A stretch of DNA of 64,000 nucleotides from a candidate division WWE3 bacterium UBA1401 (GTDB lineage: Bacteria; Patescibacteriota; WWE3; UBA101185; UBA10185). Below are positions 18,882 through 62,009 of this stretch, piece after piece. Where the stretch lies: NCBI GenBank assembly GCA_002305115.1, contig DBQF01000003.1:65338-129337 (forward strand). The letters run 5' to 3'. Positions within the stretch are counted from its first letter, which is position 1. Each line of letters begins with the position of its first letter. The position numbers were made by a program, and so were the translations under genes. The notes below the pieces were generated by a model. That model did not search any database. It was not told the origin of the DNA and saw only the letters and a program-made list of their open reading frames with translations.

Positions 18882-18898
18882 GCAAACCTCACCCCCTA

Positions 18899-18932
18899 AC
18901 CCCCTCTCCATAAAGCACTCTATGGAGAGGGG
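18899..18932. repeat. Perfect 13-bp inverted repeat (ccccctctccata / tatggagaggggg)
   Basis: I read it directly. It lies between the stop of the upstream minus-strand gene and the GT2 start. Confidence 0.7.
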
Positions 18933-20484: not shown

Positions 20485-21590
20485 TACAAGAAGACAGTTC
20501 CATCAAATACCCGTACACCTCTAACCCACAGGCTTAAGTACCAGGCATAAAATAAATAAAAAGCCATAACGGTAATATAATACATAACTTTGTACTTATA
20601 GCTAAATAGTTCAATTGCTCCCAAAATCAATATTGGTATAAACCAAATTAAGTAAGTTCTGTTTAGGACAGGGGTGAAAAGATAAAAAGGTACAAAAGAA
20701 AGCATCGCTAAAATATATTTGTTTGTAAGCTTTTTTGTTAAATATAACAACGGTGTCATAATCCAGCCGGAAAATGTTGCCAAATAAACATATATTTTTA
20801 AGTAAGCAATATCAAATACATTAAGCCCTGTAACCCATTTTATGAAAAAAAGAATTGGCCTGCCTTGAGGCTCCCTGGTACTATGCACCAGAAACACAGA
20901 ATTAATATACGAAAGCAAATCTTCCCTAGAAAGAATAAACGGAACACTAATTGCCAGCGCGAAAACAAAGCCACCTGTCAAGAACCTCAGCTTTCTTTTG
21001 CTACCCAAGAAAAAGAGCGGAAACAACACAATAGGAAAAGCCTTAAACGAAACTGCTGCTGCATACACCATTCCTGTTAAGAAATCTTTCTTTCCTAGCA
21101 GGTGCAATGCCAAGACCATAAAGAAAATACCAAGAGGCTCTGTATATGAGTAAGTTCTATTAACCACAAAATAAGGGTTAAGTAACCAGACGAGTAACCC
21201 TACCAAAAGAGCCCAGTAGTTTTTCTTATATAAGAAAATAATTAAAACCAAGGCAGTTCCAACATCTGCAACCAGAACCGGGGCTTTCCACAGCCTCTGC
21301 AAAGGTAAGTCACTAACACGAGCCAACAAGTACAAAGGCGTCTGGATATAAAGCAAACTTGGCATATAGGCATAACCCTTATCTCTATACTGATCAGGAT
21401 ACCTATAGGTGTTCCATGTATGAATGTATGGGTTTTCAGCGTGTGTAAACCTATAAACTGTGTCCACAAAAGTTGTCAGTTCACCACCCGATTCATCAAA
21501 CACTTTATACTTCTGGAAAGAAGAAAACAAGATAATGACAAGTACAAGTGCAGGTTTTATCAGGTCTTGTTTTGCAAAATCCCTCAACAT
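20484..21590 (-). CDS. Polytopic glycosyltransferase, GT87 (ex-DUF2029)-like. It is a paralogue of 6699..7817.
   Basis: It shares KGYAYMPSLLY and LFTPVLNRTY with 6699..7817. Its stop overlaps the next gene by 1 nt. Confidence 0.6.
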   Translation of the reverse strand: MLRDFAKQDLIKPALVLVIILFSSFQKYKVFDESGGELTTFVDTVYRFTHAENPYIHTWNTYRYPDQYRDKGYAYMPSLLYIQTPLYLLARVSDLPLQRLWKAPVLVADVGTALVLIIFLYKKNYWALLVGLLVWLLNPYFVVNRTYSYTEPLGIFFMVLALHLLGKKDFLTGMVYAAAVSFKAFPIVLFPLFFLGSKRKLRFLTGGFVFALAISVPFILSREDLLSYINSVFLVHSTREPQGRPILFFIKWVTGLNVFDIAYLKIYVYLATFSGWIMTPLLYLTKKLTNKYILAMLSFVPFYLFTPVLNRTYLIWFIPILILGAIELFSYKYKVMYYITVMAFYLFYAWYLSLWVRGVRVFDGTVFL

Positions 21591-23510: not shown

Positions 23511-24917
23511 TTAATCTGCAGAAACCCTGCGAAACACCATCGCCACCGGGGCGTCATTGTGATAGAACTCCTTCTCCAACGTATAATTCATCAAAAACCC
23601 ATAATCCATCGGCCGAAATTCCTGCGATTCATAAATAAACACATAATACTGCGGCAAAAAATTTGAACCGGGTGGCGTGACATCAAACTTCTGCAAATAA
23701 TACTCAGCAATCGTCGCGTTATCATTCGTATACACATTCCTAACACCCCTCTTTGCATACAAATAATCCTGCACCTTATCCCACGCTCTATAATACGGAA
23801 ACCCATATAAAAACAAATGCCTGTTCTTCTCTATGGGCGCGTTCCAGGGATAACCCTTATTAAACGAAGGTAAATACACCTGCAACGAATAAATCAGCTG
23901 TAGGGCAATGACAAAAGTTAGTACATACAACAAGACATTACCAAAAAACTTAGGAGCCGTTTTCGCTAACTCGTCAAGCTGGATGCCAGCCAACACAAAT
24001 AGAGGTATTAAATAGTTATATATATGCGTTCCGGGATTTAAAAACACAAACTGGAAAGTTAAGAAGGCTAAAACAAACCACAAAAGGAACACACTCTTCT
24101 GCCAACTTATTTCCTTAAAGAATACAAAAAATGCGGCAGCTAAGGGCAATAGCCCAAAAATGAAGGGATTATAAACAAAAATAGTATATGGACTGAAATT
24201 CTGATCAAAATTACTGCCGGTAACACGTCTTTCAATATAGCCAAGGGTGTTTGTACTAAAATATCCCGAAACAATATATGGAACATAAAATGCAGCAAGA
24301 AGAATAACCACTGGAACACAAAAAAGCGCAAAGTTTTTTAATTTCACATTATTCTTAACTAACACATAAATAACCGGAATAACAAAGAAGACAGCGTCAT
24401 AGTGAGCCAAGCAAGCAAGTGCCATACTCGCTGATCCTGCAATCAGTAACCAGGGTCGTGAGTTTCTCACATAACGAATAACAAGATATAAGGCCAGAAA
24501 TCCGAAAAACAGCAAGATACTTTGATACTGAATAGTTCTGGCAAAAGCAATAAAAAAACCATTCACCGATAGCAAAATTGCAGCAATAAAAGCAGCTCGA
24601 TAATTAAACAGATCTTTTATGATCAAATAAAGTATAATTACTGCGGCGATACCGGCCAGGGCAAACGGCAGCCGAGTTACAAATTCATCATAGCCACCGG
24701 AAAGTTTTTCCATAGTCCAGGAAACTAAAAACTGTGTGGGTCCTTTTCGTTGATCTAACAAGAATTGTTTAGCAGGAATAGTTTTATCCAGATAAAATGT
24801 CTTGGTTTCGTCACCATAAAAATGGGAATAACCAAGCCCCGGTAATCTAAGAATAGCCGTTACCACAAAAAGCACCACTAGTAAAAACATTTCTGCTCTA
24901 TTCAGTTTGCGAAGCAT
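23511..24917 (-). CDS. GT-C fold glycosyltransferase (PMT_2/ArnT-like). It is a paralogue of 38621..40102.
   Basis: It carries FYGDETKTFY...QRKGPTQF after TM1. The start could instead be ATG 24890. Confidence 0.7.
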   Translation of the reverse strand: MLRKLNRAEMFLLVVLFVVTAILRLPGLGYSHFYGDETKTFYLDKTIPAKQFLLDQRKGPTQFLVSWTMEKLSGGYDEFVTRLPFALAGIAAVIILYLIIKDLFNYRAAFIAAILLSVNGFFIAFARTIQYQSILLFFGFLALYLVIRYVRNSRPWLLIAGSASMALACLAHYDAVFFVIPVIYVLVKNNVKLKNFALFCVPVVILLAAFYVPYIVSGYFSTNTLGYIERRVTGSNFDQNFSPYTIFVYNPFIFGLLPLAAAFFVFFKEISWQKSVFLLWFVLAFLTFQFVFLNPGTHIYNYLIPLFVLAGIQLDELAKTAPKFFGNVLLYVLTFVIALQLIYSLQVYLPSFNKGYPWNAPIEKNRHLFLYGFPYYRAWDKVQDYLYAKRGVRNVYTNDNATIAEYYLQKFDVTPPGSNFLPQYYVFIYESQEFRPMDYGFLMNYTLEKEFYHNDAPVAMVFRRVSAD

Positions 24918-38620: not shown

Positions 38621-40102
38621 CTATTTTAGTTTCTCTACTACATACACACTTGAAACCGTATCGCCTTTAGCATTTTTAAATCTCTGTAAAAGCTCTTTAT
38701 CCTCTATATAAGAAAACCTGGTATCATTAACAAAATTGTACGGATGCTTCACTGCAATAACGAATGCATGCTCAGAAAGTTCCGGCTCTAGCCCTACATA
38801 ATAATTGGCAATACTTGTAACTTCGTTAGTGTGATAGCCGAACGCTGTACCCTCAGGGATACTGTAGTTACGCACAAGCTCACCAACTTCCCGCCATCGT
38901 CTGTTTATGGGAAACCCTAAGATATTGTTTTTTAGGTTTTCGTGAGAATACTTTACTGTTTCATATCTTTCCAGACCAAACAGCTTTTCTCTTTCCCATG
39001 GATATTCCCGGGAAACATCTACAAACAACACATAAGACTGATACCATAAAACCCCAATTCCCGTAACGAGAAATGCCGTGAGCACAGCAGAAACAACTTT
39101 TGGTAGCTTGGCAAGAACTTGCGCTAACACTAAGGCAACAACTACAGCAAAAGGCAGCAGCACATTGTATAAATGTGTACCAGACCGCTTTACAAAAAAT
39201 AGAAATACTCCAAGCGTACCAACATACCAAAGAAAGTACACTAGGCGCTTCCTTATCACTAGAACTGATAGAACAGTAAAAACCATAAAAGTCGCAGTAA
39301 AGAAAAACGGATTATGTAATTCCGAATAAAAACGATAATACTCAACGCGCTCAAACGGCTGCAAATTAGTAAAACCCACGCGGGAAGAAATATAAGCCAC
39401 AAAATCCGGCCGATTTACTAAGTTTGCCACAAAGGGCATTATAAAAGGCAGTAACACAACAAGAGCTAACCCAAAAATAAGTACAAGGCGCTTAATACTT
39501 GTACCTTTAACAAGATAAAAGCCCACTAGCGGCAGAAATAACAAAGCGTCCCAATGAGCCAAGAAAGAAAAACAATAAGCCAAAGTGCCAAATAAAGCAA
39601 ACTTTAGCACTTTTTTGCGGGCATACAATTCCAAAAAGAACAGTGCACTAATTGTAAAAAGTAGGTTTAGGCTTTGATACTGCACGATTCGGCCAAAAGC
39701 TACTATAAAGCCATTAACCCCAAAAAGAGCCGCACCTAACAGGCTGGCCAACTTATTGCCGGAAACATTTACTAAGTAAAAGTACAGCATAACTACAGCC
39801 ATAACATTAAAAATCGCAAAAGGAATTCTAAAAGGCAGTTCGTAGTATGGATCAGAAATAAATGGGCTTACAGCGGCAGCTAACCAAAACTGCAAAGGCC
39901 CTTTATTTTGTGCCAGTACAAACTCTTTGGCAAATACGTTAACCTTATCTCTAATAGGGGACATAACGGTGGTTTCATCAATAATAAAATTAGAGTGGCC
40001 TAGGTTGCCAAAGCGTAGATAGCTAACACTCAGTAAAGAAACTATAACTAAACTATAAAAAAGAAAGGACTTTGCAGACATACAAAAATTATATACGAAC
40101 AA
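38621..40102 (-). CDS. GT-C fold glycosyltransferase (PMT_2/ArnT-like). It is a paralogue of 23511..24917.
   Basis: It carries FIIDETTVMSP...AQNKGPLQFW after TM1. Confidence 0.7.
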   Translation of the reverse strand: MFVYNFCMSAKSFLFYSLVIVSLLSVSYLRFGNLGHSNFIIDETTVMSPIRDKVNVFAKEFVLAQNKGPLQFWLAAAVSPFISDPYYELPFRIPFAIFNVMAVVMLYFYLVNVSGNKLASLLGAALFGVNGFIVAFGRIVQYQSLNLLFTISALFFLELYARKKVLKFALFGTLAYCFSFLAHWDALLFLPLVGFYLVKGTSIKRLVLIFGLALVVLLPFIMPFVANLVNRPDFVAYISSRVGFTNLQPFERVEYYRFYSELHNPFFFTATFMVFTVLSVLVIRKRLVYFLWYVGTLGVFLFFVKRSGTHLYNVLLPFAVVVALVLAQVLAKLPKVVSAVLTAFLVTGIGVLWYQSYVLFVDVSREYPWEREKLFGLERYETVKYSHENLKNNILGFPINRRWREVGELVRNYSIPEGTAFGYHTNEVTSIANYYVGLEPELSEHAFVIAVKHPYNFVNDTRFSYIEDKELLQRFKNAKGDTVSSVYVVEKLK

Positions 40103-40142: not shown

Positions 40143-41099
40143 CTACTTGTTAAGCCGGAGTAGGTTTGCTCGCACAACCTCACCAACCGAAGTGGGGTTT
40201 CCGTGCCAATCCTCAACAAGAGAAGGGAAACCAGGACCATCTGGGTAATATGCCCAGCTAATCCAAGGAATACTGTGCTTCTCCGCGAAATCGATAACTT
40301 TCTGATAGAACTCTGGGTGATAGGCGACTTCATCTACATAACCAAATTCGGTGATAATAACAGGCTTACCTTGATCTAGTAGATGCCCAAAAGCTTCTTG
40401 CCATTCATGTTCTTCATCTCTGTGATCAGAATTGCCATAGATGTGCACTCCATATATCAAATTGGAACCTTCAAGACTAGGTAAATTCCTGTGATCAAAA
40501 CTCCAATCTAGACCACTTATAACAATATAGTTTTTCGCACCGGTTTCACGAATGGTATCTACTAAATCTTGCATGCCAACCGCTACAAAATCTGATACTT
40601 CTACAGGGCCACCATACGCCCATACTTCTGGCGAGACGTTGTGAGGCTCATTGTAGAGTTCAAACCAAATGTTCATATTGTTACCATAGGTCTGGGCAAT
40701 TTCCCGCCAAAATTCCAAAGACCTTTTGTCTGGCATTTCGTGCTGCCTAACGTCATCTGCCGGGCCGATTGGGTCACCTCCCTCAGACCAGTGTAAGTCT
40801 AGGACTACAGCCATGCCAAATTCCTGGCACCAGCCAACTACCGCTTCTACAGTTCTACGGTAATGAGTATTGTCAAGCCAGTATCGTTGATTCAGAGGTA
40901 GTCTTACAATGTTCACGCCCCAACTACGCATTATTCTAAAGCTGTTTTTATTGATTTCTTCAAAGCCCCATTCCGGACGCCACCATTCCATCGAAGGGCG
41001 TGATACGCCTCGAAAGCCGTAGATGTCTTGTTGCTTAAGTGCAGATTTGCAACTAACCAAAAGTACTAGAACACAAGCTGCAGCTAGTAGCTTTTTCAC
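40143..41099 (-). CDS. GH5 glycoside hydrolase (endoglucanase/mannanase-type) lipoprotein
   Basis: It has the lipobox LLVSC, FELYNEPH (acid/base Glu), VIITEFG (nucleophile Glu) and DLHW. Confidence 0.85.
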   Translation of the reverse strand: MKKLLAAACVLVLLVSCKSALKQQDIYGFRGVSRPSMEWWRPEWGFEEINKNSFRIMRSWGVNIVRLPLNQRYWLDNTHYRRTVEAVVGWCQEFGMAVVLDLHWSEGGDPIGPADDVRQHEMPDKRSLEFWREIAQTYGNNMNIWFELYNEPHNVSPEVWAYGGPVEVSDFVAVGMQDLVDTIRETGAKNYIVISGLDWSFDHRNLPSLEGSNLIYGVHIYGNSDHRDEEHEWQEAFGHLLDQGKPVIITEFGYVDEVAYHPEFYQKVIDFAEKHSIPWISWAYYPDGPGFPSLVEDWHGNPTSVGEVVRANLLRLNK

Positions 41100-47105: not shown

Positions 47106-47115
47106 GGTATAACTT

Positions 47116-47137
47116 CCATGGCCCTTTTGGGCCATGG
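47116..47137 (+). terminator. GC-rich hairpin after clpP
   Basis: The hairpin is ccatggccc-tttt-gggccatgg. No trailing T-run follows. Confidence 0.45.
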
Positions 47138-47146
47138 GAGACTTAG

Positions 47147-47221
47147 GGGCTCCTAGCTCCCTTCTGCGTCCGCCTACGCCAAAAGGCTTCGGCGGACTAC
47201 GCAGGGCAAGCAGTTGGTTAG
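47147..47221 (+). pseudogene. tRNA-Val 5'-fragment (13 + 11 nt identical to the real gene) split by a 51-nt GC-rich hairpin
   Basis: gggctcctagctc (47147-47159) and cagttggttag (47211-47221) match tRNA-Val positions 1-13 and 13-23. Confidence 0.5.
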
Positions 47222-47264
47222 TGACTTAAAAAGCTGTACAAAAGTGTGCTTTGAAGATAATTTT

Positions 47265-47341
47265 GGGCTCCTAGCTCAGTTGGTTAGAGCGTCGCAGTGA
47301 CATTGCGGAGGTCACAGGTTCGAGACCTGTGGAGCCCACCA
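47265..47341 (+). tRNA. tRNA-Val(GAC), CCA encoded
   Basis: Acceptor gggctcc/ggagccc and anticodon loop gtGACat. Confidence 0.9.
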
Positions 47342-47405
47342 CGCTAAGCGTGGTGGAGGCTCGCTAAGCGAGCCCACCAGAAAAGTTCCCTGCAGGCAGA
47401 TGCCC

Positions 47406-48866
47406 TTACCTCCCCCGCAGCACCACATTCAGCGGGACACCAAAACGGGTCACCTCAAACACAGTCTTACCAGAAAACCCTTCCTTCCTTAAATTATCCC
47501 AATCACACACCACAAAATCCGCCTCACTAGAGGATCCTACCATCTCAAATTTGCCTTCCGAATAATACTGCATAGCAGCAGGTACATTGCAGGCATATAC
47601 CTTAGAAAAAGGCTGAGTCCTCAACCATTCGGCTGCTTCTTTATAACTTGCTCCCCAATAATCCAGCTCATAAACATCACTTGCACCCTTAAGCCCCCCA
47701 ACCAACTCGTTAAAGTACACATACTGATACGGATGCAGCCGGATTACTGCACAGCAAACCAACACAAAGTTAAGAAGCGCAAAAGCAAGAACAGGCAGCC
47801 GAAACTTGCTCTTTATACTAAAAAGTTCTGCAAAAAAAAGCGTTGCGGCAAAAACAATAACAGGTAGTAGATACAAAAAATGTCTTAACCCATTATAAAT
47901 AACGGGATCTAGCGCAAAATAGAGCCCAAAATTCACAACAACACATAACCAAAGCAATTGCAAAAATCTAGATACTTTAGCGTAGTAACTACTTAGCAAA
48001 AAGCCCACCAAAACATAAAGAGGTGTAGTAATAATAAGCCATAACGGTAAATAACTTAACGGCCGGTCATACTTCGTGAGAAAACTACCCATAAACAAAA
48101 TTGTATTATCCCAAGCACCAAACCTTTGGGCATTGTAAATTAATTCCAATGCATTTCTAACCACATTCGCTCCCACATATGGAAAAGTCAACACAGTAGC
48201 AAACCCGGAAACACAAGCCACAATAATAACATCCACCAACTTCTGGCCTAAATTTTTATTTTGCAATAGTTCAAAAAGCAAAAAGATAAGTAGTAAAGAC
48301 GCGCCAATAATGCGCAAGCTTTGGGTAAGCCCAAACAATACACCTAATACCAAATACTTGGCAGGAGTTTTTTTAGTGGAAAAAAGATAAATCGCTGCCA
48401 AGGAGATGAAGTATAAAACCGCAAATGGCATATCTTTAGGATTAGCCGGCACATGCCCCAGCCAGCGAGGCGTGGTAAATAGCATAACTACAGCCAAGAT
48501 CGCAAAGCATACTTTCCCTGATAAATGGTAAGCGAGATAGTAAAAACAAGCAAAAAGAATAAATCCAAAGGCCATATTAAGCAGGTGATACCATTCGTAA
48601 TAATTCTTACCATTCACTACTGAAAGCGCTGCACTATAAATTCTATTGTGTTTATCCAGTAGGGGAGAGTCTTGGGCAGCTGTAACTTCCCGTTCCAAAA
48701 CATCTTCATAGAAGGGAGTTCTGAAATAAGTAGCCCAAATACAACCTTTTCGATAATTCAATTCTTCGTCTGCCGTAATACCGTAATCTTTGTAAGTACT
48801 AAGCGCAAATAAGGTATACAGACTTGCAATAAGCAGGAAAACAAGATGCACATAGTGTTTTCTCAT
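47406..48866 (-). CDS. GT-C fold glycosyltransferase. It is a paralogue of 50392..51909.
   Basis: It contains YGITADEELNY after TM1, NPKDMPFA, VIYNGLRHFLYL and LHPYQYVYFNEL..LDYWGASYKEAAEWLR. I prefer the start at MRKHYV (48866). Confidence 0.7.
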   Translation of the reverse strand: MRKHYVHLVFLLIASLYTLFALSTYKDYGITADEELNYRKGCIWATYFRTPFYEDVLEREVTAAQDSPLLDKHNRIYSAALSVVNGKNYYEWYHLLNMAFGFILFACFYYLAYHLSGKVCFAILAVVMLFTTPRWLGHVPANPKDMPFAVLYFISLAAIYLFSTKKTPAKYLVLGVLFGLTQSLRIIGASLLLIFLLFELLQNKNLGQKLVDVIIVACVSGFATVLTFPYVGANVVRNALELIYNAQRFGAWDNTILFMGSFLTKYDRPLSYLPLWLIITTPLYVLVGFLLSSYYAKVSRFLQLLWLCVVVNFGLYFALDPVIYNGLRHFLYLLPVIVFAATLFFAELFSIKSKFRLPVLAFALLNFVLVCCAVIRLHPYQYVYFNELVGGLKGASDVYELDYWGASYKEAAEWLRTQPFSKVYACNVPAAMQYYSEGKFEMVGSSSEADFVVCDWDNLRKEGFSGKTVFEVTRFGVPLNVVLRGR

Positions 48867-48867
48867 A

Positions 48868-48880
48868 TATAATGATTGTA
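48868..48880. promoter_or_regulatory. Back-to-back -10 boxes (TATAAT on plus at 48868-73, TACAAT on minus at 48875-80)
   Basis: Each box lies 8 nt upstream of the ATG of its divergent gene. Confidence 0.5.
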
Positions 48881-48881
48881 C

Positions 48882-50408
48882 ATGCAAAAAATCAAGAAAA
48901 AAACCTGGGGCATACTTACTGCACTTTGCTTGTTCGCACTAATGCTTCAGCTAACTAAACACGTTACATTCATGCAAAACGATGATTGGTACTACTACAG
49001 GGAAGTTACAAAGTTTCTAGCCGGAGACTTTGTTCTAGACAAAGATATAGCACCCACCTTTTACTTACAGGGAATAATGGCAATGCCTTTCGCTAAAGCT
49101 CTTGGTATAAGCAAACTTCCGGTGCTAACTCTGGCAGTGGCAGTATTGAATTTTTATTTACTCTACATAATCTTAGTGGAACCCTACAAAAAAGGGGTTG
49201 TTCAAGCGCTTTTGGTTGCATTACTGTTCTTTGTTACACCTCTGAATATTTATACGGTACTGGGGTTTATGACCGAACAATATTTTTTACTTTTTATGCT
49301 TTTGGCCATCTACTGCTTTAGGCAATATGATCAAACGCAAAGTACCAAGTGGCTGGGCGGGTTTCTGCTGGCTGTAATAGCCAGTTTTTTTGTTAGGCAA
49401 ATTGGCTTGTTACTACCAATAACTGCCGGCATGTACTGGCTGATTAAGAAGCAATATACGCACGCACTTAAAGCGCTTGCAGTAACACTAGTTTTGGGGC
49501 TATTCTATGCATTTATCTTCCCCAAAACTCCAGAAATGCAAGGCAAAACTTTGGACTTTACTAACCTTACAAAGTTTGATTACAGCTATGCGATTATTTA
49601 TGGCTCGTTAGTCTATCTTGCTGCGGTTACTTTGCCGCTAGTAGCCATCTTTATGTCCAAAAGCCTAAACCGGAAACTTTTGGTAACTATTGCGGTGGCT
49701 GTTGGTCTATACTTTGCACTCCAACAACCGTTTAAACCTATGACAGTTTCGTGGGGGGAATTTCCGTATTTCGAAAACACCTGGGAAAGAACGGGCTTTA
49801 TGGCCAGGGAAATTCACGGTACAAAGTATCAATTTAAGGGCATTTATGACTTGTATTTGCACTGGGATACTTTGGCGAAAATTGGCGTTGCACTTCTTCT
49901 GGCAAGCTTACTGTTTTCCGGAAAGCTAAAACATAACCTATTTTGTATACTATTTAGCACAGGTTATCTGGGCATTATGCTTTTAACACACACTTTTTAC
50001 GATAGATATGTGTTAATTCTAGTCCCCATCTTCTTGATGCTACTAGCAGGCTCTATCAACTTGGGACTATTCGGAAAACTCACACTGATGGCATTCACCG
50101 GCTTTATTGCTTTTTATTCATATACACTGGCAACTGACTATGTACTTGCAGAAGCCTACGTATGGAACAAAGCTACACAATTAACAAACCAGCAAGCATT
50201 AGCTCCAAAAACGATTTTTGCCACCGGTGCCTGGCAAGAACAACATGGCACAGCAGGACCGGAAACAAAGTTTATTTTTAGCTATGATTCACCTCACATC
50301 AATCAGGACCAATTGGCTAACTACAAACTAAAAGAACAAAAGGCTATCGACTATCCATTTAATATCCATATTAATCCGGCTATCTATTTATATGAAAAAA
50401 CTAATTAG
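48882..50408 (+). CDS. GT-C fold glycosyltransferase (ArnT-like)
   Basis: It is polytopic, with MQNDDWYYYRE after TM1. I prefer ATG 48882 to TTG 48876. Confidence 0.6.
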   Translation: MQKIKKKTWGILTALCLFALMLQLTKHVTFMQNDDWYYYREVTKFLAGDFVLDKDIAPTFYLQGIMAMPFAKALGISKLPVLTLAVAVLNFYLLYIILVEPYKKGVVQALLVALLFFVTPLNIYTVLGFMTEQYFLLFMLLAIYCFRQYDQTQSTKWLGGFLLAVIASFFVRQIGLLLPITAGMYWLIKKQYTHALKALAVTLVLGLFYAFIFPKTPEMQGKTLDFTNLTKFDYSYAIIYGSLVYLAAVTLPLVAIFMSKSLNRKLLVTIAVAVGLYFALQQPFKPMTVSWGEFPYFENTWERTGFMAREIHGTKYQFKGIYDLYLHWDTLAKIGVALLLASLLFSGKLKHNLFCILFSTGYLGIMLLTHTFYDRYVLILVPIFLMLLAGSINLGLFGKLTLMAFTGFIAFYSYTLATDYVLAEAYVWNKATQLTNQQALAPKTIFATGAWQEQHGTAGPETKFIFSYDSPHINQDQLANYKLKEQKAIDYPFNIHINPAIYLYEKTN

Positions 50409-51909
50409 CAACCACAGGCTATTTATTTTCTTTGCAGTTAGCTATTTGGTAGTTGGCTTACTAACATATAAAGACTTTGGCCCCACATTCGACGAAGTCA
50501 CCGAGTACACAGCCGGATCTTACCTATATAAATATTACGTAACACCTACCAGCCAAGCCTCAGTACAAGCTTTATTTACCGAAAAACCGGAAGATGTTGA
50601 AACAAGGCATCTGCCCTTATTCAGCGTTTACTCCAGGATCTACCCAATGCTGCTTAGTCTGGCTAATCCCCAAGGCTATTTCGAGTGGTATCACTTAAGT
50701 AATATATTCTTTGGCTTTGGGCTATTTGTATTCGCGTACCTTTTGTTATTGGAAGCAACAGGTAATCCGAAAAAGGCTATTCTGGGACCAATAGCTTTAG
50801 TGCTTACGCCATACCTAACGGGACATATTCCAGGAAATCCAAAAGACATTCCTTTTGCTACTGCTTATCTGGCAAGTATGTATATAATCTACTTACTATG
50901 CAAGCGAAATAGTGACACAAGGGCTAGAGTACTAGCTTTGGGCATAACGTTTGGTGTTACGATGGCACTAAGGGCAGTAGGAATTACTTTACTGGGTATT
51001 TACACAATCTACGCTCTGGCACAACACAAACTTAAACTAAAGGACTGTGTACTGGAAACTATACTTATTGCTATAGTAGCTATTTTAGTCTGGGCAATAT
51101 TACTGCCTTTTATTGGTGCAAATCTGCCAACTAATCTGGTTGAAGTTATATTTAACGCGGCCAATTACAGTGAATGGAACGGCATTATTTACTATTTGGG
51201 AGAATATTTGAGCAAAGAACAAAGGCCCTGGCACTACTTGTTTATATTGATGGCAGTAAAATTACCTATAGCTACTTTAGCTTTATTCGCAGGAAAAATA
51301 GCCAGCGTATTTAAAAAGCCAAAAGTACGAGACATAAATCTACTCCTATTGCTGGCAATCTCCACAAATCTAGCACTCTACTTGGTGACTAAACCTGTGA
51401 TTTACAACGGAGCTAGACATTTCTTATATTTGATTGTACTGATTACGCTAGTTGCGACACTACAGCTAGTGGCTCTCCAGCACAAAGCTTTGGTAGGAAT
51501 TATTATTGTTTATGGCATTTTTACTATGTACAGAATGGTAAAGTTGCACCCATACGAATACGTGTACTTCAATGAACTTACTTTTGGATTGAGCAATGCG
51601 CAACACTTGTTTCAATTGGATTACTGGGGAGCTTCATATAAAGAGGCAGCTGAGTATATTAGAGATTATGCAAGAACTAATAAGCTAGAACACCTAAAAA
51701 TATTTACCTGCGATAACCCATTTGCTGTTGTTTATTACTCCGAATTTGCATTTGACTTAGTTGGCAGTCCAAAAGAGGCTAATCTGCTAATCTGCGATAC
51801 TTTCAGAGACGCTATAAGAAACTTTGACAATAGGTATCCGATTTTTCACACTATTAACCGTGAACATACACCTTTAACATACATCAGGCTTAGACAAGCA
51901 TGGGATTAG
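50392..51909 (+). CDS. GT-C fold glycosyltransferase. It is a paralogue of 47406..48866.
   Basis: It contains FGPTFDEVTEY, NPKDIPFA, VIYNGARHFLYL and LHPYEYVYFNEL..LDYWGASYKEAAEYIR. Confidence 0.7.
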   Translation: MKKLISNHRLFIFFAVSYLVVGLLTYKDFGPTFDEVTEYTAGSYLYKYYVTPTSQASVQALFTEKPEDVETRHLPLFSVYSRIYPMLLSLANPQGYFEWYHLSNIFFGFGLFVFAYLLLLEATGNPKKAILGPIALVLTPYLTGHIPGNPKDIPFATAYLASMYIIYLLCKRNSDTRARVLALGITFGVTMALRAVGITLLGIYTIYALAQHKLKLKDCVLETILIAIVAILVWAILLPFIGANLPTNLVEVIFNAANYSEWNGIIYYLGEYLSKEQRPWHYLFILMAVKLPIATLALFAGKIASVFKKPKVRDINLLLLLAISTNLALYLVTKPVIYNGARHFLYLIVLITLVATLQLVALQHKALVGIIIVYGIFTMYRMVKLHPYEYVYFNELTFGLSNAQHLFQLDYWGASYKEAAEYIRDYARTNKLEHLKIFTCDNPFAVVYYSEFAFDLVGSPKEANLLICDTFRDAIRNFDNRYPIFHTINREHTPLTYIRLRQAWD

Positions 51910-51927
51910 CTGTGCTAGAATAAAGTA

Positions 51928-52734
51928 GTGAGGAGTACAGCCCATATCATCAAATACACCATAATTAGTGCATTCCTGGTATTACTTTCTACATTACTAT
52001 CCTTGAACCTCGTAAATTATGTATTGGCACAGGATTATTTCACCCCACCTGCTACAGTAGTTGCAAAGATAACAGCCCTTTTACTCGGGATTGCTTATGC
52101 TAATGCTTTAACAGTAGGTGCTTGGGGTAAATGGGAACACTATGTATTCTTTCCGGGAAGTATTGCTGCTGGTGTTTATCTAGTATTAGTAAATGTTAAC
52201 CAAACACACGCAGTAAATTTTGCCGCGTTAACATTATGCATTTTGTTATACCAAACTATAAAGGCTACTGCCCTAAAAGGGCTGTTTGTCAAATTCCAGC
52301 CGCGCTTTGTTTACAAATCATCAACCAAAGGTATCTTTTTGGTGTTCTCACTATTAGCAGCCTCTACTATCTTGATTAGCCCACAAGCAGAAGCCCCGAT
52401 AGACTTGGGTCAGAAAATCGCAGAAACTACTGTTAAACAGGCCATAAATTTAACCGAAGCAGATATTTCGCTAAAAACACTCTTGCAAGATAGTATTATT
52501 GGGCTTAACATGCAGAATCAGATCAGAGACCAAGTAAATTCCTTATTACAACCCTACAGAAGTTTCTTAACCCCATTAATTGCGGTAGCAGTGTTTTCTC
52601 TAGTTCAAGCGTTAGGAGTACTGGTCTACCTGGTGTTTAGTATTACAATTAGTGCCTTTTTATGGATAATGCGCAAATCAGGAATATTAAAAGTGGAATA
52701 CCAAACTACTCAACAAGAGATTCTATCGTTCTAG
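51928..52734 (+). CDS. Polytopic membrane protein, unknown function
   Basis: It has a GTG start 6 nt after TGcTAGAAT and about 6 TM segments. Confidence 0.5.
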   Translation: MRSTAHIIKYTIISAFLVLLSTLLSLNLVNYVLAQDYFTPPATVVAKITALLLGIAYANALTVGAWGKWEHYVFFPGSIAAGVYLVLVNVNQTHAVNFAALTLCILLYQTIKATALKGLFVKFQPRFVYKSSTKGIFLVFSLLAASTILISPQAEAPIDLGQKIAETTVKQAINLTEADISLKTLLQDSIIGLNMQNQIRDQVNSLLQPYRSFLTPLIAVAVFSLVQALGVLVYLVFSITISAFLWIMRKSGILKVEYQTTQQEILSF

Positions 52735-53371
52735 CATCTTCTATCTTAAAGTCACCAATTCTAGTGCGCACTAAATGCAAAAGAACTCCCCCCACACCAA
52801 GCTTTTCACCTAAATCGTAAGCAATAGATCTTATGTAAGTACCACTGCTGCACGTTATAGTACAATCTAAAACCAGCAAATTGTGACCGGAGACGGGTTT
52901 CTCGTCAAGGGAATTCACCTGAATATTTTTAACTGTGACCTTCTTGGTGGGTAGCTTATCTAAATTCAGTTTCCCCTTACGGGAAAGTTTATACATTCGC
53001 TTGCCATCGATTTTTTTGGCAGAGTAGGGGGGAACTGTTTGCTCAATCTCACCAACAAAAAAAGGTAACGCATTTTCTACTTGTTGTTTTAGCTCAGTTA
53101 CTGACGATAGTGGATTGAATGAGAGTGAACCTTCTAGATCATAGGTGGGAGAAGTAGCACCAAAACCAATTTCCGCCCTGTATTCTTTTTCCAGTTGCAT
53201 AAAGTCTTGTTGCTTTTTTGTGTCCTGATCAGTAAGAATTATGAGTACGCCTTCAGCCAAAGGGTCTAAGGTACCGGCATGACCAACTTTTTTGGTGTGC
53301 AAGAGGTTGCGCACTTTTGCCACTACGTCAAAACTCGTCCAATCCTTGGGTTTATAAATGTTTATGATCAT
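52706..53371 (-). CDS. truB: tRNA pseudouridine(55) synthase
   Basis: It contains GHAGTLDPLAEGVL. Confidence 0.9.
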   Translation of the reverse strand: MIINIYKPKDWTSFDVVAKVRNLLHTKKVGHAGTLDPLAEGVLIILTDQDTKKQQDFMQLEKEYRAEIGFGATSPTYDLEGSLSFNPLSSVTELKQQVENALPFFVGEIEQTVPPYSAKKIDGKRMYKLSRKGKLNLDKLPTKKVTVKNIQVNSLDEKPVSGHNLLVLDCTITCSSGTYIRSIAYDLGEKLGVGGVLLHLVRTRIGDFKIEDARTIESLVE

Positions 53372-53394
53372 TAAGCCAATGATAGCATAGGATC

Positions 53395-53426
53395 GGAGGT
53401 CGGACCCGGCACCGGGTCCGACCTCC
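53395..53426. promoter_or_regulatory. Two GGTCNGACC cores forming a perfect 15-bp inverted repeat
   Basis: The sequence is ggaggtcggacccgg-ca-ccgggtccgacctcc. Confidence 0.65.
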
Positions 53427-53469
53427 CAACATTGTTAATTGTCAATAAATGCTTTACAATAGGAAAAAC

Positions 53470-59360: not shown

Positions 59361-62009
59361 TCAAGACTCCGTATTGCCAATAGTTACTTTAATGGTTTTA
59401 GTTCCATCTCTGCCGTCTTCATCCACAGCTTTGGCAGAGAACTCTACTGTTTTGCCAACATCACCAGGGCTAAATTCGAAAGTATAGCCGTAGGGAGCAG
59501 ACTTGTCTTCAGTTACGCGCTCACCATTTTTATAAATCGAAACCTTTTCTATGTCATCAACAGCCGATATTTCCACCTGTAACCTGTACTTAAGAGGAAT
59601 AGTATCACCATTGTCCAAACCAGTAAATTCCAGCTTGGGATCCATGTCTTTTGGATCATCACCATCAAATTCCACTCGCGAAGTCATAGTAGGCGGAAAA
59701 TACTTGGAATCTTTGTAATTGTCTTTTACCCACTGATCAACCGCATTTTGCCACTCGGGCTTTTCGGCAGTAATCTTCACAAAGGTTTTTTCTGCAGTCT
59801 TATCAGCATCTCTACACGCCTTACTGGCAAGCCGTCCATCAACCTTACAGATTTCCAACTTTTGATACCAACTGCTTCGGGCTGTTGGCTCTGTGCCTTT
59901 GATAAACCACTCGGCGCGGGTAGGGAAGTCTTCAAACGGGAGCATTCCGGTGAGCTCGTCTATAGTAACTTTATGCACTGTTGAGGGCACCGGAAAATCT
60001 TGCGGCTCTTTGTCTTCCAAATAGGCCATCATAAAATCCCGCCAAATAGGCGTAGCACCTGTAATACCTGAAGCAATATACGGGTTCATCTCGTCATTGT
60101 TGTTATTACCAACCCATACACCTGCCACTAACGATGGGGTGTAGCCAATGGCATAGTTATCACGCTTATCGTCTGTAGTTCCGGTTTTTACTGCCACCCT
60201 GTGCCCAGGTATATTAAGCAAGCTATTGGCACCAAAAGCCGCGGAACGGGCACCGTCGTCGGACAAAATGTCATTAATTAAAAAGGCTACTTCTGGTTCC
60301 AATGCAGACTTGCCACCTGTGTCTCGATATTTATAAAGAACGTTGCCATGCGCATCTCTTACTTCCAAAAAGGGTGTAGGCTGCCTAAACCTGCCTTGCG
60401 CTGGAAACACGCTATAAGCACCGGTTAACTCCAGTAGACTTACCTCACCACCCCCTAAAGTTAACGCCAGTCCAAAGCGAGATCTATCACCAAATGAAGT
60501 AATTCCCATCTTTTCAGCCTGATCAATCATGCTATCGATACCTACAATACTTAAGGCCTTAACGGCAGGAATATTAAGTGAGTTACCTAAAGATTTGCGC
60601 AAAGACATGGGTCCTCGGAAAATACCATCATAGTTTTCTGGTATATATGGTTTATCTGGGCGGGAACCGGGGAATTCTGTTTCCACATCTAAAAATGGAA
60701 AAGCTGCAGTATAACCCTGAGAAAGCATGGTAGCGTAAGTAATAGGCTTAATTGATGATCCTGGCTGCCTGTGAGCCATTGTAACGTTTAAATGAGGTTC
60801 AAACGTACAACTGTTTTCACCAGTAATACCCGATATACATCCGGTGGGTTCAGACTCTAGAAAGTAACCTTTAGAACCAACCATTGCTAAAATCTGGCCG
60901 GTTTGCGGATCTAACGCCACTAATGAACCGTTGCCCACATTATAGCTTTTGCTAGCTTCCACATTGTCATAAACAATTTCCTGTGCTTGCATTTGTAAAT
61001 CTAAATCCAACGTAGTGGTCACCTGTAAGCCGCGTTGTTCAACCACATCTTCACCAAACATATCTGCTAACAAACGCTTTACGTAAAATACAAAATGAGG
61101 TGCTTCAAACGAGATGGCTGCCGACTGAAAGTCTAGGGGAGCTTCTTTGGCTACTTCATACTCCTCGTCACTGATATATCTGCGAACTCCGTTACTGTCA
61201 AGCCAACCACGCTCATTCATTAAATATAATATATAGTTTTTACGCTCTATACCTGCTTCAGGATTTGAACCAAATTGTGAATAATAACTTGGGCTTTGAG
61301 GCAAGCCTGCCAAATAAGCAGCTTCTTCTAAATTTAACTCAGAGGGTAATTTATTGAAATAAGCCTTCGATGCGGTGTAAATACCATAGTTTTGGCCACC
61401 ATAGGGTGTTTCATTAAGATACATTTGTAGAATTTGGTCTTTGGTGTACTTGTTCTCAAGCTGCAGTGATAAAATCATTTCTTTAATTTTTCTGGAAATG
61501 GTACGATCTTGCGTTAGCAAAGCATTTTTAACTGACTGCTGTGTGATTGTAGAGCCACCCTGTAAACCTTCTCCTGTGGCAGTATTTCTAATAGCCCTAA
61601 GCATACCCCTAATAGAAAAGCCGCTATGATGATAAAAATCTGCATCCTCCGCAGCTAAAGTAGCGTGAATAATGTGTGACGAAACATCATCTATAGAAAC
61701 AAGAACACGGTTTTTTTCGCCGTATACTTCGAGAATTGGAGTGCCTTTACGGTCATAAATTTTGGTAGAAAGTTCTTCGCTACGCTCCAGTAAGCGGTTG
61801 GGGTTGGGAAGGTCGCGTGAGTAGCTGACAAAGACTATTACTACACCTACTGCGGCCACAATAATGAAGAATAATGCCAGGTAGGCGAGTGTGACTAGGA
61901 CTTTTAGTTTGGCAGGACTAAGTTTTAACTTTAATTTTGGGTTGGGAAGTTTTATGTTTGGTTTTGACGGGAAGCTTTTCCCAAAGCTTTTTTTCCACTT
62001 TTTTACCAT
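59361..62009 (-). CDS. Class A penicillin-binding protein (GT51 transglycosylase + transpeptidase) with a C-terminal Ig-like extension
   Basis: It contains EDADFYHHSGF, RQPGSSIKP (SxxK) and KTGTT. Confidence 0.93.
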   Translation of the reverse strand: MVKKWKKSFGKSFPSKPNIKLPNPKLKLKLSPAKLKVLVTLAYLALFFIIVAAVGVVIVFVSYSRDLPNPNRLLERSEELSTKIYDRKGTPILEVYGEKNRVLVSIDDVSSHIIHATLAAEDADFYHHSGFSIRGMLRAIRNTATGEGLQGGSTITQQSVKNALLTQDRTISRKIKEMILSLQLENKYTKDQILQMYLNETPYGGQNYGIYTASKAYFNKLPSELNLEEAAYLAGLPQSPSYYSQFGSNPEAGIERKNYILYLMNERGWLDSNGVRRYISDEEYEVAKEAPLDFQSAAISFEAPHFVFYVKRLLADMFGEDVVEQRGLQVTTTLDLDLQMQAQEIVYDNVEASKSYNVGNGSLVALDPQTGQILAMVGSKGYFLESEPTGCISGITGENSCTFEPHLNVTMAHRQPGSSIKPITYATMLSQGYTAAFPFLDVETEFPGSRPDKPYIPENYDGIFRGPMSLRKSLGNSLNIPAVKALSIVGIDSMIDQAEKMGITSFGDRSRFGLALTLGGGEVSLLELTGAYSVFPAQGRFRQPTPFLEVRDAHGNVLYKYRDTGGKSALEPEVAFLINDILSDDGARSAAFGANSLLNIPGHRVAVKTGTTDDKRDNYAIGYTPSLVAGVWVGNNNNDEMNPYIASGITGATPIWRDFMMAYLEDKEPQDFPVPSTVHKVTIDELTGMLPFEDFPTRAEWFIKGTEPTARSSWYQKLEICKVDGRLASKACRDADKTAEKTFVKITAEKPEWQNAVDQWVKDNYKDSKYFPPTMTSRVEFDGDDPKDMDPKLEFTGLDNGDTIPLKYRLQVEISAVDDIEKVSIYKNGERVTEDKSAPYGYTFEFSPGDVGKTVEFSAKAVDEDGRDGTKTIKVTIGNTES

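What the first reader, a model, noticed from the sequence alone, without database searches (positions are those of the whole stretch)
47406..52734. Divergent cluster of three GT-C genes, including a clear paralogue pair, plus an unknown membrane protein
47406..48866(-) and 50392..51909(+) share long near-identical blocks: NPKD[MI]PFA, VIYNG[LA]RHFLYL, LHPY[QE]YVYFNEL and LDYWGASYKEAAE[WY][LI]R. They flank a third, unrelated GT-C gene (48882..50408) whose stop overlaps the start of 50392. A 268-aa polytopic protein of unknown function follows at 51928. The C-terminal soluble block (DYWGASYKEAAE) is unusual for ArnT-like enzymes and may be an acceptor-recognition domain.
Basis: seen in the sequence. 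Interest (0 to 1): 0.6.

Follow-up and report, generated by a model that had tools for sequence, protein, structure and literature searches.

The report
Three membrane glycosyltransferase genes in WWE3
Three adjacent genes in a small candidate-phylum (WWE3-like) bacterial genome encode membrane sugar-transferring enzymes of the known GT-C type, two of them old duplicates from a large unnamed family; this is a real but fairly ordinary cluster, and the fourth gene does not belong to it.

Summary
Genes A (47406..48866, -) and B (50392..51909, +) are true paralogues, 38% identical over 468 residues (E=4e-101). They flank gene M (48882..50408, +), which shows no sequence similarity to them and whose stop overlaps B's start by 17 nt.

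A confident AlphaFold model of B (pLDDT 93.6) matches ArnT, DPY19, PglB/STT3, AftA, Emb and Pmt structures, so B has the GT-C fold. M has only family-level, sub-threshold PMT_2 support.

The DYWGASYKEAAE block is not rare. A profile of the C-terminal 123 residues finds about 5,000 cluster representatives, nearly always at the end of ~500-aa proteins. It marks a large unnamed GT-C family with a small C-terminal alpha/beta domain that matches no solved structure.

In distant relatives this family lies beside a GtrB/ArnC/PgfS-like GT2, a sugar aminotransferase and a methyltransferase. That points to a polyprenyl-phosphate-sugar donor.

The A-M-B trio, with a nearly identical 13-17-bp A/M spacer, recurs only in the closest relatives. 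Most family members are solitary.

The 268-aa gene travels with truB in relatives that have no trio there, and is not part of the cluster.

Verdict: uncharacterised members of a known enzyme class, of modest interest.

The parts
47406..48866 (-). Gene A: 486-aa polytopic membrane protein, the A-type subfamily of an unnamed ArnT/PMT_2-like GT-C family
   Evidence: ORF. 38% identical to B over 468 aa, E=4e-101. Weak PMT_2 match of 17.7 bits, below the 26.1-bit cutoff. Keeps the family's invariant residues (ADEE after TM1, NPKD, RHFLY, HPYQYVYFNE, DYWG). A-type orthologues at 44-51% identity occur in other metagenomes.
48867..48881 (.). 15-bp divergent spacer between the A and M start codons. It carries back-to-back -10-like hexamers: TATAAT at 48868-48873 on the + strand, 8 nt before M's ATG, and TACAAT at 48875-48880 on the - strand, 8 nt before A's ATG. 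Inferred bidirectional promoter giving leaderless or near-leaderless mRNAs.
   Evidence: Sequence. Nearly identical spacers of 13-17 bp (CAT-ATATAAT[G/T]ATTGTAC-ATG) in L001, L002 and L004, although the flanking proteins are only 44-52% identical. The same -10-to-start geometry is seen at many other genes of the window. The transcription start is inferred, not shown.
48882..50408 (+). Gene M: 508-aa polytopic membrane protein of a WWE3/Patescibacteria-restricted family, a probable GT-C glycosyltransferase
   Evidence: ORF. PMT_2 at 22.5 bits, E=1.4e-4, below cutoff. 18 of 38 family members match PMT_2 (best E=1.5e-7) and one matches PMT. Invariant Q32-N33-D34-D35 just after TM1 aligns with the YGDET loop of a bona fide PMT_2 protein of the window (hhalign E=5.6e-4, probability 30%). 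54 loci in GTDB genomes, nearly all WWE3 or Patescibacteria. No structure was predicted.
50392..51909 (+). Gene B: 505-aa GT-C-fold glycosyltransferase, the B-type subfamily and paralogue of A. Its start overlaps M's stop by 17 nt (50392-50408).
   Evidence: ORF. AlphaFold2 pLDDT 93.6, pTM 0.94. Foldseek vs PDB: ArnT 5f15 at E=2e-7 and TM 0.55, then DPY19, PglB, STT3, AglB, ALG3, AftA, EmbB and Pmt4. Family profile vs PDB sequences: Pmt2 at E=0.0016. Invariant D34 and nearly invariant E35 lie after TM1. There is no -10-like hexamer or SD before its start, consistent with co-transcription and coupled translation with M.
51538..51906 (+). C-terminal block of B (residues 383-505). It comprises the LHPYEYVYFNE segment just after the last TM helix, the DYWGASYKEAAE start of a long helix, and a compact ~95-residue alpha/beta domain.
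   Evidence: Domain model has a core pLDDT above 90. No significant solved-structure match: best E=0.035, and only generic Rossmann-like hits. A profile finds 4,983 representatives at E<=1e-3 and 2,366 at E<=1e-10, almost always at the C-terminus of 470-560-aa proteins.
51928..52734 (+). Gene U: 268-aa membrane protein of unknown function. It is an adjacent neighbour that I judge NOT to be part of the GT-C module.
   Evidence: Only 7 homologues found. In L006-L009 it is paired with truB (convergent, overlapping 3' ends) in a tig-clpP...truB-thrS-infC-rpmI-rplT backbone with no GT-C trio beside it. The trio loci L001, L002 and L004 lack it. It has its own TGnTAGAAT -10-like element ending 6 nt before its GTG start.

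Best explanation
A, M and B are three integral-membrane GT-C glycosyltransferases of a WWE3-like (Patescibacteria/CPR) bacterium.

Proposed mechanism. Each enzyme has a first transmembrane helix followed by an extracytoplasmic loop with a conserved acidic pair: D34-E35 in A/B (D34 invariant, E35 in at least 90%) and D34-D35, both invariant, in M. This is the usual GT-C catalytic or metal site. On the outer face of the cytoplasmic membrane each enzyme takes a sugar from a polyprenyl-phosphate-linked donor. That donor is made in the cytoplasm by a GtrB/ArnC-type GT2 and then flipped across the membrane. The enzyme transfers the sugar to a cell-surface acceptor, either a glycan or a protein, since the lineage is reported to lack lipid A.

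The two families. A and B are ancient paralogues of a large unnamed ArnT/PMT_2-like family. The family is defined by the NPKD, RHFLY and HPYEYVYFNE...DYWGxSYKE motifs and a small C-terminal alpha/beta domain outside the membrane. Both copies keep all invariant residues, so both are probably active, with different acceptor or linkage specificity. M belongs to a separate family restricted to WWE3 and other Patescibacteria.

Expression. A and M appear to be transcribed divergently from a conserved 15-bp back-to-back promoter as leaderless mRNAs. B appears to be co-transcribed and translationally coupled with M.

Shown versus inferred.
- Shown: paralogy, the GT-C fold of B, motif conservation, and recurrence of the gene order in the closest relatives.
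- Inferred: donor type (from the fold and from operon context in distant relatives), topology, promoter function, and joint action on one glycoconjugate.
For: - Paralogy: E=4e-101.
- GT-C fold of B: pLDDT 93.6, with ArnT, DPY19, PglB, STT3, AftA, Emb and Pmt as top structural matches.
- Acidic pair after TM1: D34 invariant and E35 nearly invariant in 56 A/B-family sequences; D34-D35 invariant in 38 M-family sequences.
- Weak PMT_2 affinity in both families: 11 of 56 and 18 of 38 members. The A/B profile aligns full-length with a bona fide PMT_2 protein of the window at E=2e-5.
- Donor inference: in distant A/B-family members (25-28% identity) the gene is flanked by a GT2 that matches PgfS (253 bits) and ArnC (167 bits) over full length, in 21 loci. 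It is also flanked by a DegT/PseC/ArnB-like aminotransferase (10 loci) and a SAM methyltransferase (21 loci). This is the layout of three-component extracytoplasmic glycosylation systems (PMC11127046).
- Linkage of A, M and B: the same three families are adjacent in L001, L002/L003 and L004/L005. Related A1-A1-A2 arrays occur in L038 and L080.
- The A/M spacer is nearly identical across four loci, and M/B overlap in the window and in L001.
- WWE3 genomes are reported as glycosyltransferase-rich and lacking lipid A genes (PMC3812714).
Against: - No donor-synthase, flippase, aminotransferase or methyltransferase homologue lies in the 64-kb window.
- Most A/B-family genes are solitary, including B-type genes at about 40% identity. 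Most M loci lack a strict A/B neighbour. The trio is therefore a lineage-restricted arrangement.
- B is inverted relative to M in L002 and L004, so the M-B coupling is not universal.
- The window is crowded with GT-C genes: seven PMT/PMT_2-like including A and M (only one scores above the Pfam cutoff), plus B and two GT87-like. Adjacency alone is therefore weak evidence of joint function.
- M's fold was not modelled, and its Pfam match is below threshold.
- No activity, donor or acceptor is known for any member of either family.
Confidence: 0.75

Rival explanations
1. The three genes are functionally independent GT-C enzymes. They are adjacent only because this lineage carries many such genes and shuffles them, and each serves a different acceptor.
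For: The 64-kb window holds nine GT-C-like ORFs. Most A/B-family and M-family genes in other genomes lack the trio arrangement. Flanking genes differ in every trio locus. B's orientation relative to M varies.
Against: The A/M divergent pair has a nearly identical 13-17-bp spacer in four loci whose proteins are only about 45-50% identical. All three families stay adjacent while the flanks change. M and B overlap in two loci. A member of the wider A/B superfamily lies within 6 kb of M in 31 of 55 loci.
Confidence: 0.3
2. A and B form an obligate heterodimer of paralogous GT-C subunits, as Pmt1-Pmt2 and EmbA-EmbB do. M may be a third partner in a single membrane complex.
For: A-type and B-type orthologue pairs are retained together in the window, L001, L002 and L004. 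Solved GT-C paralogue heterodimers are among the structural matches: 6p25 Pmt1-Pmt2 and 7bvc EmbA-EmbB.
Against: B-type genes occur alone in many WWE3 contigs, with no A-type within 7 kb. Both paralogues keep every catalytic-type invariant residue, so neither looks like a dedicated non-catalytic partner. No complex prediction was possible with these tools.
Confidence: 0.12
3. A and B are protein glycosyltransferases (OST- or PMT-like). Their DYWG motif, about 25 residues after the last TM helix, would play the role of the WWDYG acceptor-peptide motif of PglB/STT3, and the enzymes would glycosylate S-layer, pilin or Ser/Thr-rich surface proteins.
For: PglB, STT3, AglB, DPY19 and Pmt are significant fold matches. 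DYWG is nearly invariant and sits just after the last TM helix. WWE3 B-type genes are next to a membrane-anchored protein with a Ser/Thr/Gly-rich tail in 7 loci. GT-C pairs that O-glycosylate Ser/Thr-rich regions are known in streptococci (PMC12041528).
Against: ArnT, a lipid-acceptor enzyme, is the best match (TM 0.55 against 0.45 for PglB). The resemblance between DYWG and WWDYG is from memory and is only partial. The isolated C-terminal domain matches no OST domain. In distant relatives the operon looks Arn-like, with an aminotransferase and an ArnC-like GT2.
Confidence: 0.15
4. A and B are ArnT orthologues that add aminoarabinose to lipid A.
For: ArnT is the top structural match. Distant relatives sit beside ArnB-like and ArnC-like genes.
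Against: There is no ArnT or NCBIfam match. There are no arn genes in the window. WWE3 genomes are reported to lack lipid A synthesis genes (PMC3812714). Identity to ArnT in the structural alignment is 11-12%.
Confidence: 0.03

Closest known systems
ArnT (undecaprenyl-phosphate-L-Ara4N:lipid A transferase, GT83; PDB 5EZM/5F15)
   Same: It is the best structural match to B (E=2e-7, TM 0.55). It shares the polytopic GT-C_A-type core, an acidic residue in the first outer loop, and a C-terminal soluble domain outside the membrane. Distant relatives of A/B sit beside ArnB-like and ArnC-like genes.
   Different: Identity is 11-12%. There is no Pfam or NCBIfam membership. The C-terminal domain does not match ArnT's when searched alone. 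The host lineage is reported to lack lipid A (PMC3812714). There is no arn operon in the window.
Protein O-mannosyltransferases (PMT/Pmt, GT39) and the Pfam PMT_2 family
   Same: This is the only sequence-level affinity. PMT_2 matches some members of both families. Pmt2 is the only PDB sequence hit of the A/B profile (E=0.0016). The DE pair after TM1 resembles the PMT loop-1 DE motif (my own knowledge).
   Different: Scores for A and M are below the Pfam cutoff, and B has no match. There are no MIR domains, and the proteins are much shorter than eukaryotic PMTs.
Three-component extracytoplasmic glycosylation systems (GtrA/GtrB/Gtr* and GT136 systems; Kelly et al. 2024, PMC11127046)
   Same: The proposed logic is the same: a GT2 loads a sugar on polyprenyl phosphate, a flippase exports it, and a GT-C enzyme transfers it outside the membrane. 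Distant A/B-family members have an adjacent GtrB/ArnC/PgfS-like GT2.
   Different: In the window no GT2 of that type and no flippase is adjacent. There are three GT-C genes rather than one.
Clusters with several GT-C enzymes: S. mutans pgf operon (PgfS, PgfM1, PgfE, PgfM2; PMC12041528) and mycobacterial Emb/Aft arabinosyltransferases
   Same: Two or more GT-C enzymes are encoded together and act outside the membrane on one class of acceptor. Emb and Pmt include paralogue pairs that heterodimerise.
   Different: PgfM1 and PgfM2 are YfhO-type and the Emb proteins are about 1,100 aa with CBMs, so none is homologous at sequence level to A, B or M. Joint action of A, M and B is only inferred.

Membership tests
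GT-C glycosyltransferase superfamily (GT-C_A-type fold) | Polytopic membrane core of about 11-13 helices that is structurally similar to solved GT-C enzymes | tested here: met
   For B: model pLDDT 93.6. 14 PDB matches at E<=1e-3, all of them GT-C enzymes (ArnT, DPY19, PglB, STT3, AglB, ALG3, AftA). A is inferred from 38% identity. M was not modelled.
GT-C glycosyltransferase superfamily (GT-C_A-type fold) | Conserved acidic residue(s) in the first extracytoplasmic loop after TM1 | tested here: met
   A/B family: D34 is invariant and E35 is present in at least 90% of 56 sequences. M family: D34 and D35 are invariant in 38 sequences, and hhalign aligns them to the YGDET loop of a PMT_2 protein. 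The outward orientation is inferred from the fold.
GT-C glycosyltransferase superfamily (GT-C_A-type fold) | Use of a polyprenyl-(pyro)phosphate-linked sugar donor | not testable with these tools
   Only indirect evidence: a GtrB/ArnC/PgfS-like GT2 is adjacent in 21 loci of distant relatives, and none is in the window.
GT-C membership of gene M specifically | Significant match to a curated GT-C model or to a solved GT-C structure | tested here: inconclusive
   PMT_2 scores 22.5 bits against a 26.1-bit cutoff. 18 of 38 homologues match PMT_2 at E<0.01. The family profile finds nothing among PDB sequences. hhalign to a PMT_2 protein gives probability 30%.
ArnT (GT83) | Sequence membership (an NCBIfam or Pfam model above its cutoff) | tested here: not met
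   There is no NCBIfam hit. PMT_2 is below cutoff or absent.
ArnT (GT83) | arnBCADTEF-type gene context and a lipid A acceptor | tested here: not met
   The window has no ArnB-, ArnC- or methyltransferase-like gene. The lineage is reported to lack lipid A genes (PMC3812714). I could not check the whole genome.
Oligosaccharyltransferase (STT3/PglB/AglB, GT66) | WWDYG motif in a C-terminal periplasmic domain, with that domain's fold | tested here: not met
   Only a partial look-alike, DYWG, is present. The isolated C-terminal domain gives no OST match. PglB has a lower TM-score than ArnT for the whole model.
Protein O-mannosyltransferase (GT39) | PMT domain above its cutoff, plus MIR domains in a luminal or periplasmic loop | tested here: not met
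   No PF02366 or MIR match for A, M or B.

The most novel reading that the evidence does not exclude
The A/B family, with about 5,000 cluster representatives, no Pfam or NCBIfam model and a C-terminal domain unlike any solved structure, would be a new CAZy-level GT-C family. In the window's WWE3 sub-lineage, A, B and M would form a dedicated three-enzyme assembly line, possibly an A-B heteromer, expressed from a conserved bidirectional leaderless promoter. It would build a CPR-specific surface glycan or glycoprotein that matters for the episymbiotic lifestyle.
Probability: 0.2. Interest if true: 0.55.

Novelty: new member of a known kind. Interest (0 to 1): 0.3.

Why it matters
CPR/Patescibacteria have tiny genomes yet keep many membrane glycosyltransferases. 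Their surface glycans are unknown and probably mediate attachment to host cells. This locus gives a compact, confidently modelled example. It has two conserved paralogues and a lineage-specific third enzyme, clear candidate catalytic residues, and a conserved promoter. It also links an unnamed but very large GT-C family to GtrB/ArnC-type donor synthases through the operon context of distant relatives. That makes the family a reasonable target for a first biochemical characterisation, which could found a new CAZy family, as GT136 did in 2024. The finding itself does not overturn anything: the enzyme class, the mechanism and the abundance of glycosyltransferases in WWE3 are all already known.

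Tried and rejected
- NCBIfam scan of all four proteins: nothing meaningful.
- Single-sequence and profile searches of PDB sequences: only Pmt2 at E=0.0016 for the A/B profile, and nothing for B alone, M or the M profile.
- hhalign of the A/B family against the M family: probability 14%, so I treat them as separate families.
- Name look-ups for the window proteins and ten family members returned no annotation or organism.
- I tested whether U is part of the module. The 238-aa gene after the A-type gene in L002 is unrelated to U, and U's homologues sit in a truB backbone with no GT-C trio beside them. U was rejected as a member.
- tblastn of the window for the partners found in distant relatives (GtrB/ArnC-like GT2, methyltransferase, aminotransferase, the 422-aa unknown protein): no hits. 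The same was true for neighbours of solitary WWE3 B-type genes.
- The generic sigma-70 and terminator scan of 47000-53500 showed no clear excess: 13 promoter-like sites against 15.7 expected, and 10 terminator-like sites against 5.6 +/- 2.6 expected. It missed the spacer, which has no -35 element.
- Rfam found only tRNA-Val in 46900-53500.
- Repeat search found no flanking direct repeats that would mark the trio as a mobile insertion. The 52-nt inverted repeat 48551/50677 is just the A/B paralogy seen at DNA level.
- The lipid A-modifying ArnT reading was rejected (see rival explanations).

Full report
**Observation.** Exact-sequence look-up shows that public gene calls use the same boundaries.

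BLASTP of A against B gives 38% identity over 468 residues, E=4e-101. All four quoted blocks are visible in that alignment. M has no detectable pairwise similarity to B (best E=0.34). M's stop overlaps B's start by 17 nt.

**Organism and setting.** The neighbours are housekeeping genes: trigger factor, ClpP, tRNA-Val, TruB, ThrRS and L20. G+C is about 40% throughout. The window is therefore from a WWE3-like CPR bacterium.

Kantor et al. 2013 (PMC3812714) reported three things about WWE3 genomes:
- They are especially rich in glycosyltransferases.
- They lack lipid A and LPS genes.
- They probably make polysaccharides, glycoproteins or a glycosylated S-layer.

The window fits this picture. Besides A, M and B it holds four more PMT/PMT_2-like ORFs (only one above the Pfam cutoff) and a pair of GT87-like ORFs.

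**What the proteins are.** Pfam gives only sub-threshold PMT_2 matches for A (17.7 bits) and M (22.5 bits), and nothing for B. NCBIfam and PDB sequence searches give nothing useful.

I aligned 56 A/B-family sequences and predicted B's structure from that alignment. The model has pLDDT 93.6 and pTM 0.94. Foldseek against PDB returns only GT-C enzymes at significant scores:
- ArnT is first (E=2e-7, TM 0.55).
- DPY19, PglB, STT3, AglB, ALG3 and AftA follow, all at E<=1e-3.
- EmbB (E=1.5e-3) and Pmt4 (E=3.2e-3) come just below that threshold.

The family profile also finds yeast Pmt2 among PDB sequences (E=0.0016). It aligns full-length with the one window protein that has a solid PMT_2 domain, 23511..24917 (hhalign E=2e-5). 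B, and by homology A, is therefore a GT-C-fold enzyme of the ArnT/PMT_2 type.

The invariant columns fit that assignment:
- D34 (with E35) lies nine residues after TM1, at the start of the first outer-loop helix.
- K151-D152 lie in NPKD.
- R342 lies in RHFLY; the adjacent H343 is nearly invariant.
- A cluster (H386, P387, Y390, N394, Y411, W412, G413) lies right after the last transmembrane helix.

Both A and B keep all of these residues.

M belongs to a different family. It has 66 homologues and 54 genomic loci. Its own invariant motif is Q-N-D-D-W after TM1. GT-C membership for M is probable but not proven:
- 18 of 38 members match PMT_2, best E=1.5e-7.
- hhalign aligns the QNDDW loop to the YGDET loop of the PMT_2 protein, but with only 30% probability.

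**The C-terminal block.** I modelled residues 383-505 separately (core pLDDT above 90). The region has three parts:
- a short segment hugging the membrane (LHPYEYVYFNE);
- a long helix that starts at DYWGASYKE;
- a small four- to five-stranded alpha/beta domain.

Foldseek finds no significant solved relative. The best hit has E=0.035, and the hits are generic Rossmann-like folds.

A profile of the block, searched against 1.84 billion representatives, finds 4,983 proteins at E<=1e-3 and 2,366 at E<=1e-10. The match is almost always at the C-terminus of 470-560-aa proteins; shorter hits look like fragments. The block is therefore the signature of a very large unnamed GT-C family, not a rarity.

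Diverged versions of the same domain occur in other GT-Cs of WWE3. Examples are GFPINRRWREVGELV in window 38621..40102, GFPIYRGWKEAAEFL in L018, and GFPYYRAWDKVQDYL in window 23511..24917.

By my own knowledge, a C-terminal extracytoplasmic domain is the rule in ArnT, PglB/AglB and the Emb proteins. Kelly et al. [quoted passage not shown] Having such a domain is therefore not unusual; only its fold lacks a solved counterpart. An acceptor- or donor-binding role is plausible, because the most conserved residues sit at the membrane-domain junction.

**Gene-order conservation.** The closest B-type homologues (48-52% identity) lie in contigs that carry all three families:
- L001 has the window's exact layout, <-A M-> B->, with a 14-nt M/B overlap.
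- L002/L003 and L004/L005 keep the divergent A/M pair, but B is convergent with M and overlaps its 3' end.

In each locus one paralogue is A-type (44-50% to A, 37-38% to B) and the other is B-type. The duplication therefore predates these genomes. The flanking genes differ in every case.

Beyond this sub-lineage the arrangement decays.
- Of 54 M-anchored loci from GTDB genomes, only about a dozen have a strict A/B-family neighbour. One (L038) has two A/B-family genes plus M on one strand.
- A member of the wider A/B superfamily lies within 6 kb of M in 31 of 55 loci.
- Of 80 metagenome loci anchored on the A/B family, nearly all are solitary, including WWE3 B-type genes at about 40% identity. 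Only L080 repeats the A1-A1-A2 array.

But the linkage is lineage-restricted.

**The fourth gene.** U has only seven homologues. In L006-L009 it lies in the backbone tig-clpP-...-U-truB(-)-thrS-infC-rpmI-rplT with no GT-C trio beside it. The trio loci lack it. In the window the trio sits between clpP/tRNA-Val and U. U also has its own -10-like element. U is a backbone gene paired with truB, not part of the cluster.

**Expression anatomy.** The 15 bp between the A and M start codons read ATATAATGATTGTAC. TATAAT lies on the + strand 8 nt before M's ATG, and TACAAT lies on the - strand 8 nt before A's ATG.

The spacer is nearly identical in L001, L002 and L004, even though the proteins have diverged to about 45-50% identity. 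Many other genes in the window have a TAnAAT-like hexamer ending 6-9 nt before the start codon and no Shine-Dalgarno sequence. I infer that leaderless transcription is common in this genome, and that A and M share a compact bidirectional promoter. B has neither element and overlaps M, which suggests co-transcription and coupled translation. None of this has been shown experimentally.

**Mechanism.** From the fold and the motifs, the best-supported model is the standard GT-C one. A lipid-phosphate-linked sugar is presented on the outer face of the membrane and transferred to an extracytoplasmic acceptor.

Independent support for the donor type comes from distant A/B-family members (25-28% identity, largely soil and sediment metagenomes, some with outer-membrane gene neighbours). 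There the GT-C gene lies in a recurrent operon:
- an unknown 422-aa protein;
- the GT-C gene itself;
- a class I SAM methyltransferase (21 loci);
- a GT2 that matches streptococcal PgfS (253 bits) and ArnC (167 bits) over full length (21 loci);
- a DegT/PseC/ArnB-like sugar aminotransferase (10 loci).

This is the signature of three-component extracytoplasmic glycosylation (PMC11127046), probably with an amino sugar. In WWE3, M is often followed by a similar methyltransferase or by a GT2. None of these partners is in the 64-kb window, so the donor for A, M and B remains inferred. The acceptor is unknown. Lipid A is unlikely, so a surface glycan or a surface protein is the reasonable guess.

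**Comparison and novelty.** The closest known relatives are the following.
- ArnT, which is closest in structure.
- PMT/PMT_2, which is closest in sequence.
- Gtr-type three-component systems, which share the proposed logic.
- Multi-GT-C clusters such as the pgf operon (PMC12041528) and the mycobacterial Emb/Aft genes, which share the organisation.

A, M and B are not members of GT83, GT39 or GT66 by the tests I could run. They are uncharacterised families within the known GT-C class, so I rate them a new member of a known kind.

Interest is modest, at 0.3. The paralogy and the fold are solid. The family is large and unnamed, and the conserved bidirectional leaderless promoter is neat. But nothing here is surprising to a specialist, and glycosyltransferase abundance in WWE3 was noted in 2013.

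Noticed in passing
window 3444..4910(+), 19033..20484(-), 23511..24917(-), 38621..40102(-), 6699..7817(-), 20484..21590(-): There are six more GT-C-like ORFs outside the finding. Four are PMT/PMT_2-like (only 23511..24917 scores above the Pfam cutoff, at 66.8 bits), including a paralogue pair 23511/38621 at 30% identity. Two are a GT87-like pair at 32-33% identity. That makes nine GT-C-like genes in 64 kb.
   Followed up: partly
window, upstream of many start codons (e.g. 6699..7817, 17197, 22160, 29959, 31263, 33198, 43561, 45614, 51928, 59361..62009, 62139): A TAnAAT -10-like hexamer ends 6-9 nt before the start codon, with no Shine-Dalgarno sequence, at a large share of genes. This suggests that leaderless mRNAs are common in this genome.
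   Followed up: partly
window 48867..48881; L001 5663-5675; L002 11474-11490; L004 11102-11116: The 13-17-bp spacer between the divergent A and M starts is almost identical in four loci whose proteins share only about 45-50% identity. It carries back-to-back -10-like hexamers.
   Followed up: yes
window 47138..47232, upstream of tRNA-Val (47265..47341): There is a partial duplicate of the 5' end of tRNA-Val: GGGCTCCTAGCTC, then a 52-nt hairpin-forming insert, then AGTTGGTTAG. ARAGORN and Rfam do not call it. Two short hairpins and a repeat of GAGCCCACCA follow the tRNA at 47338..47380.
   Followed up: partly
window 53395..53426: A perfect 15-nt inverted repeat (GGAGGTCGGACCCGG / CCGGGTCCGACCTCC, 2-nt loop) lies in the divergent intergenic region between truB and thrS. 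Its function is unknown.
   Followed up: no
L100-L106, L116, L121-L123, L135, L141, L142, L147 and other metagenome loci: Distant members of the A/B family sit in a recurrent operon: an unknown 422-aa protein with no Pfam match, the GT-C gene, a SAM methyltransferase, a PgfS/ArnC-like GT2, and a DegT/PseC/ArnB-like aminotransferase. It looks like an uncharacterised Arn-like amino-sugar modification system.
   Followed up: partly
L068-L076 (e.g. L069:1928-2887, - strand): Solitary WWE3 B-type genes are flanked, convergently, by a membrane-anchored ~320-aa protein with a Ser/Thr/Gly/Glu-rich C-terminal tail in 7 loci. It is a possible glycosylation substrate. It has no homologue in the window.
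   Followed up: partly
L012, L013, L015, L017, L019, L044 (M followed by cluster 10); L010, L030, L038, L045 (M followed by cluster 12): In other WWE3 genomes M is immediately followed by a class I SAM methyltransferase, or by a rhamnosyltransferase-like GT2 similar to window 18009..18911.
   Followed up: partly
window 51928..52734 / 52706..53371: U and truB are convergent with overlapping 3' ends (29 nt). The same pairing is conserved in L006-L009. U's function is unknown and it has very few homologues.
   Followed up: partly
window 40143..41099(-): A GH5 cellulase-family gene (146 bits) lies directly next to the GT-C-like gene 38621..40102.
   Followed up: no
L048 9054-10014: The A/B-family gene next to M is split into two overlapping ORFs. 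It may be a frameshifted pseudogene or an assembly error.
   Followed up: no
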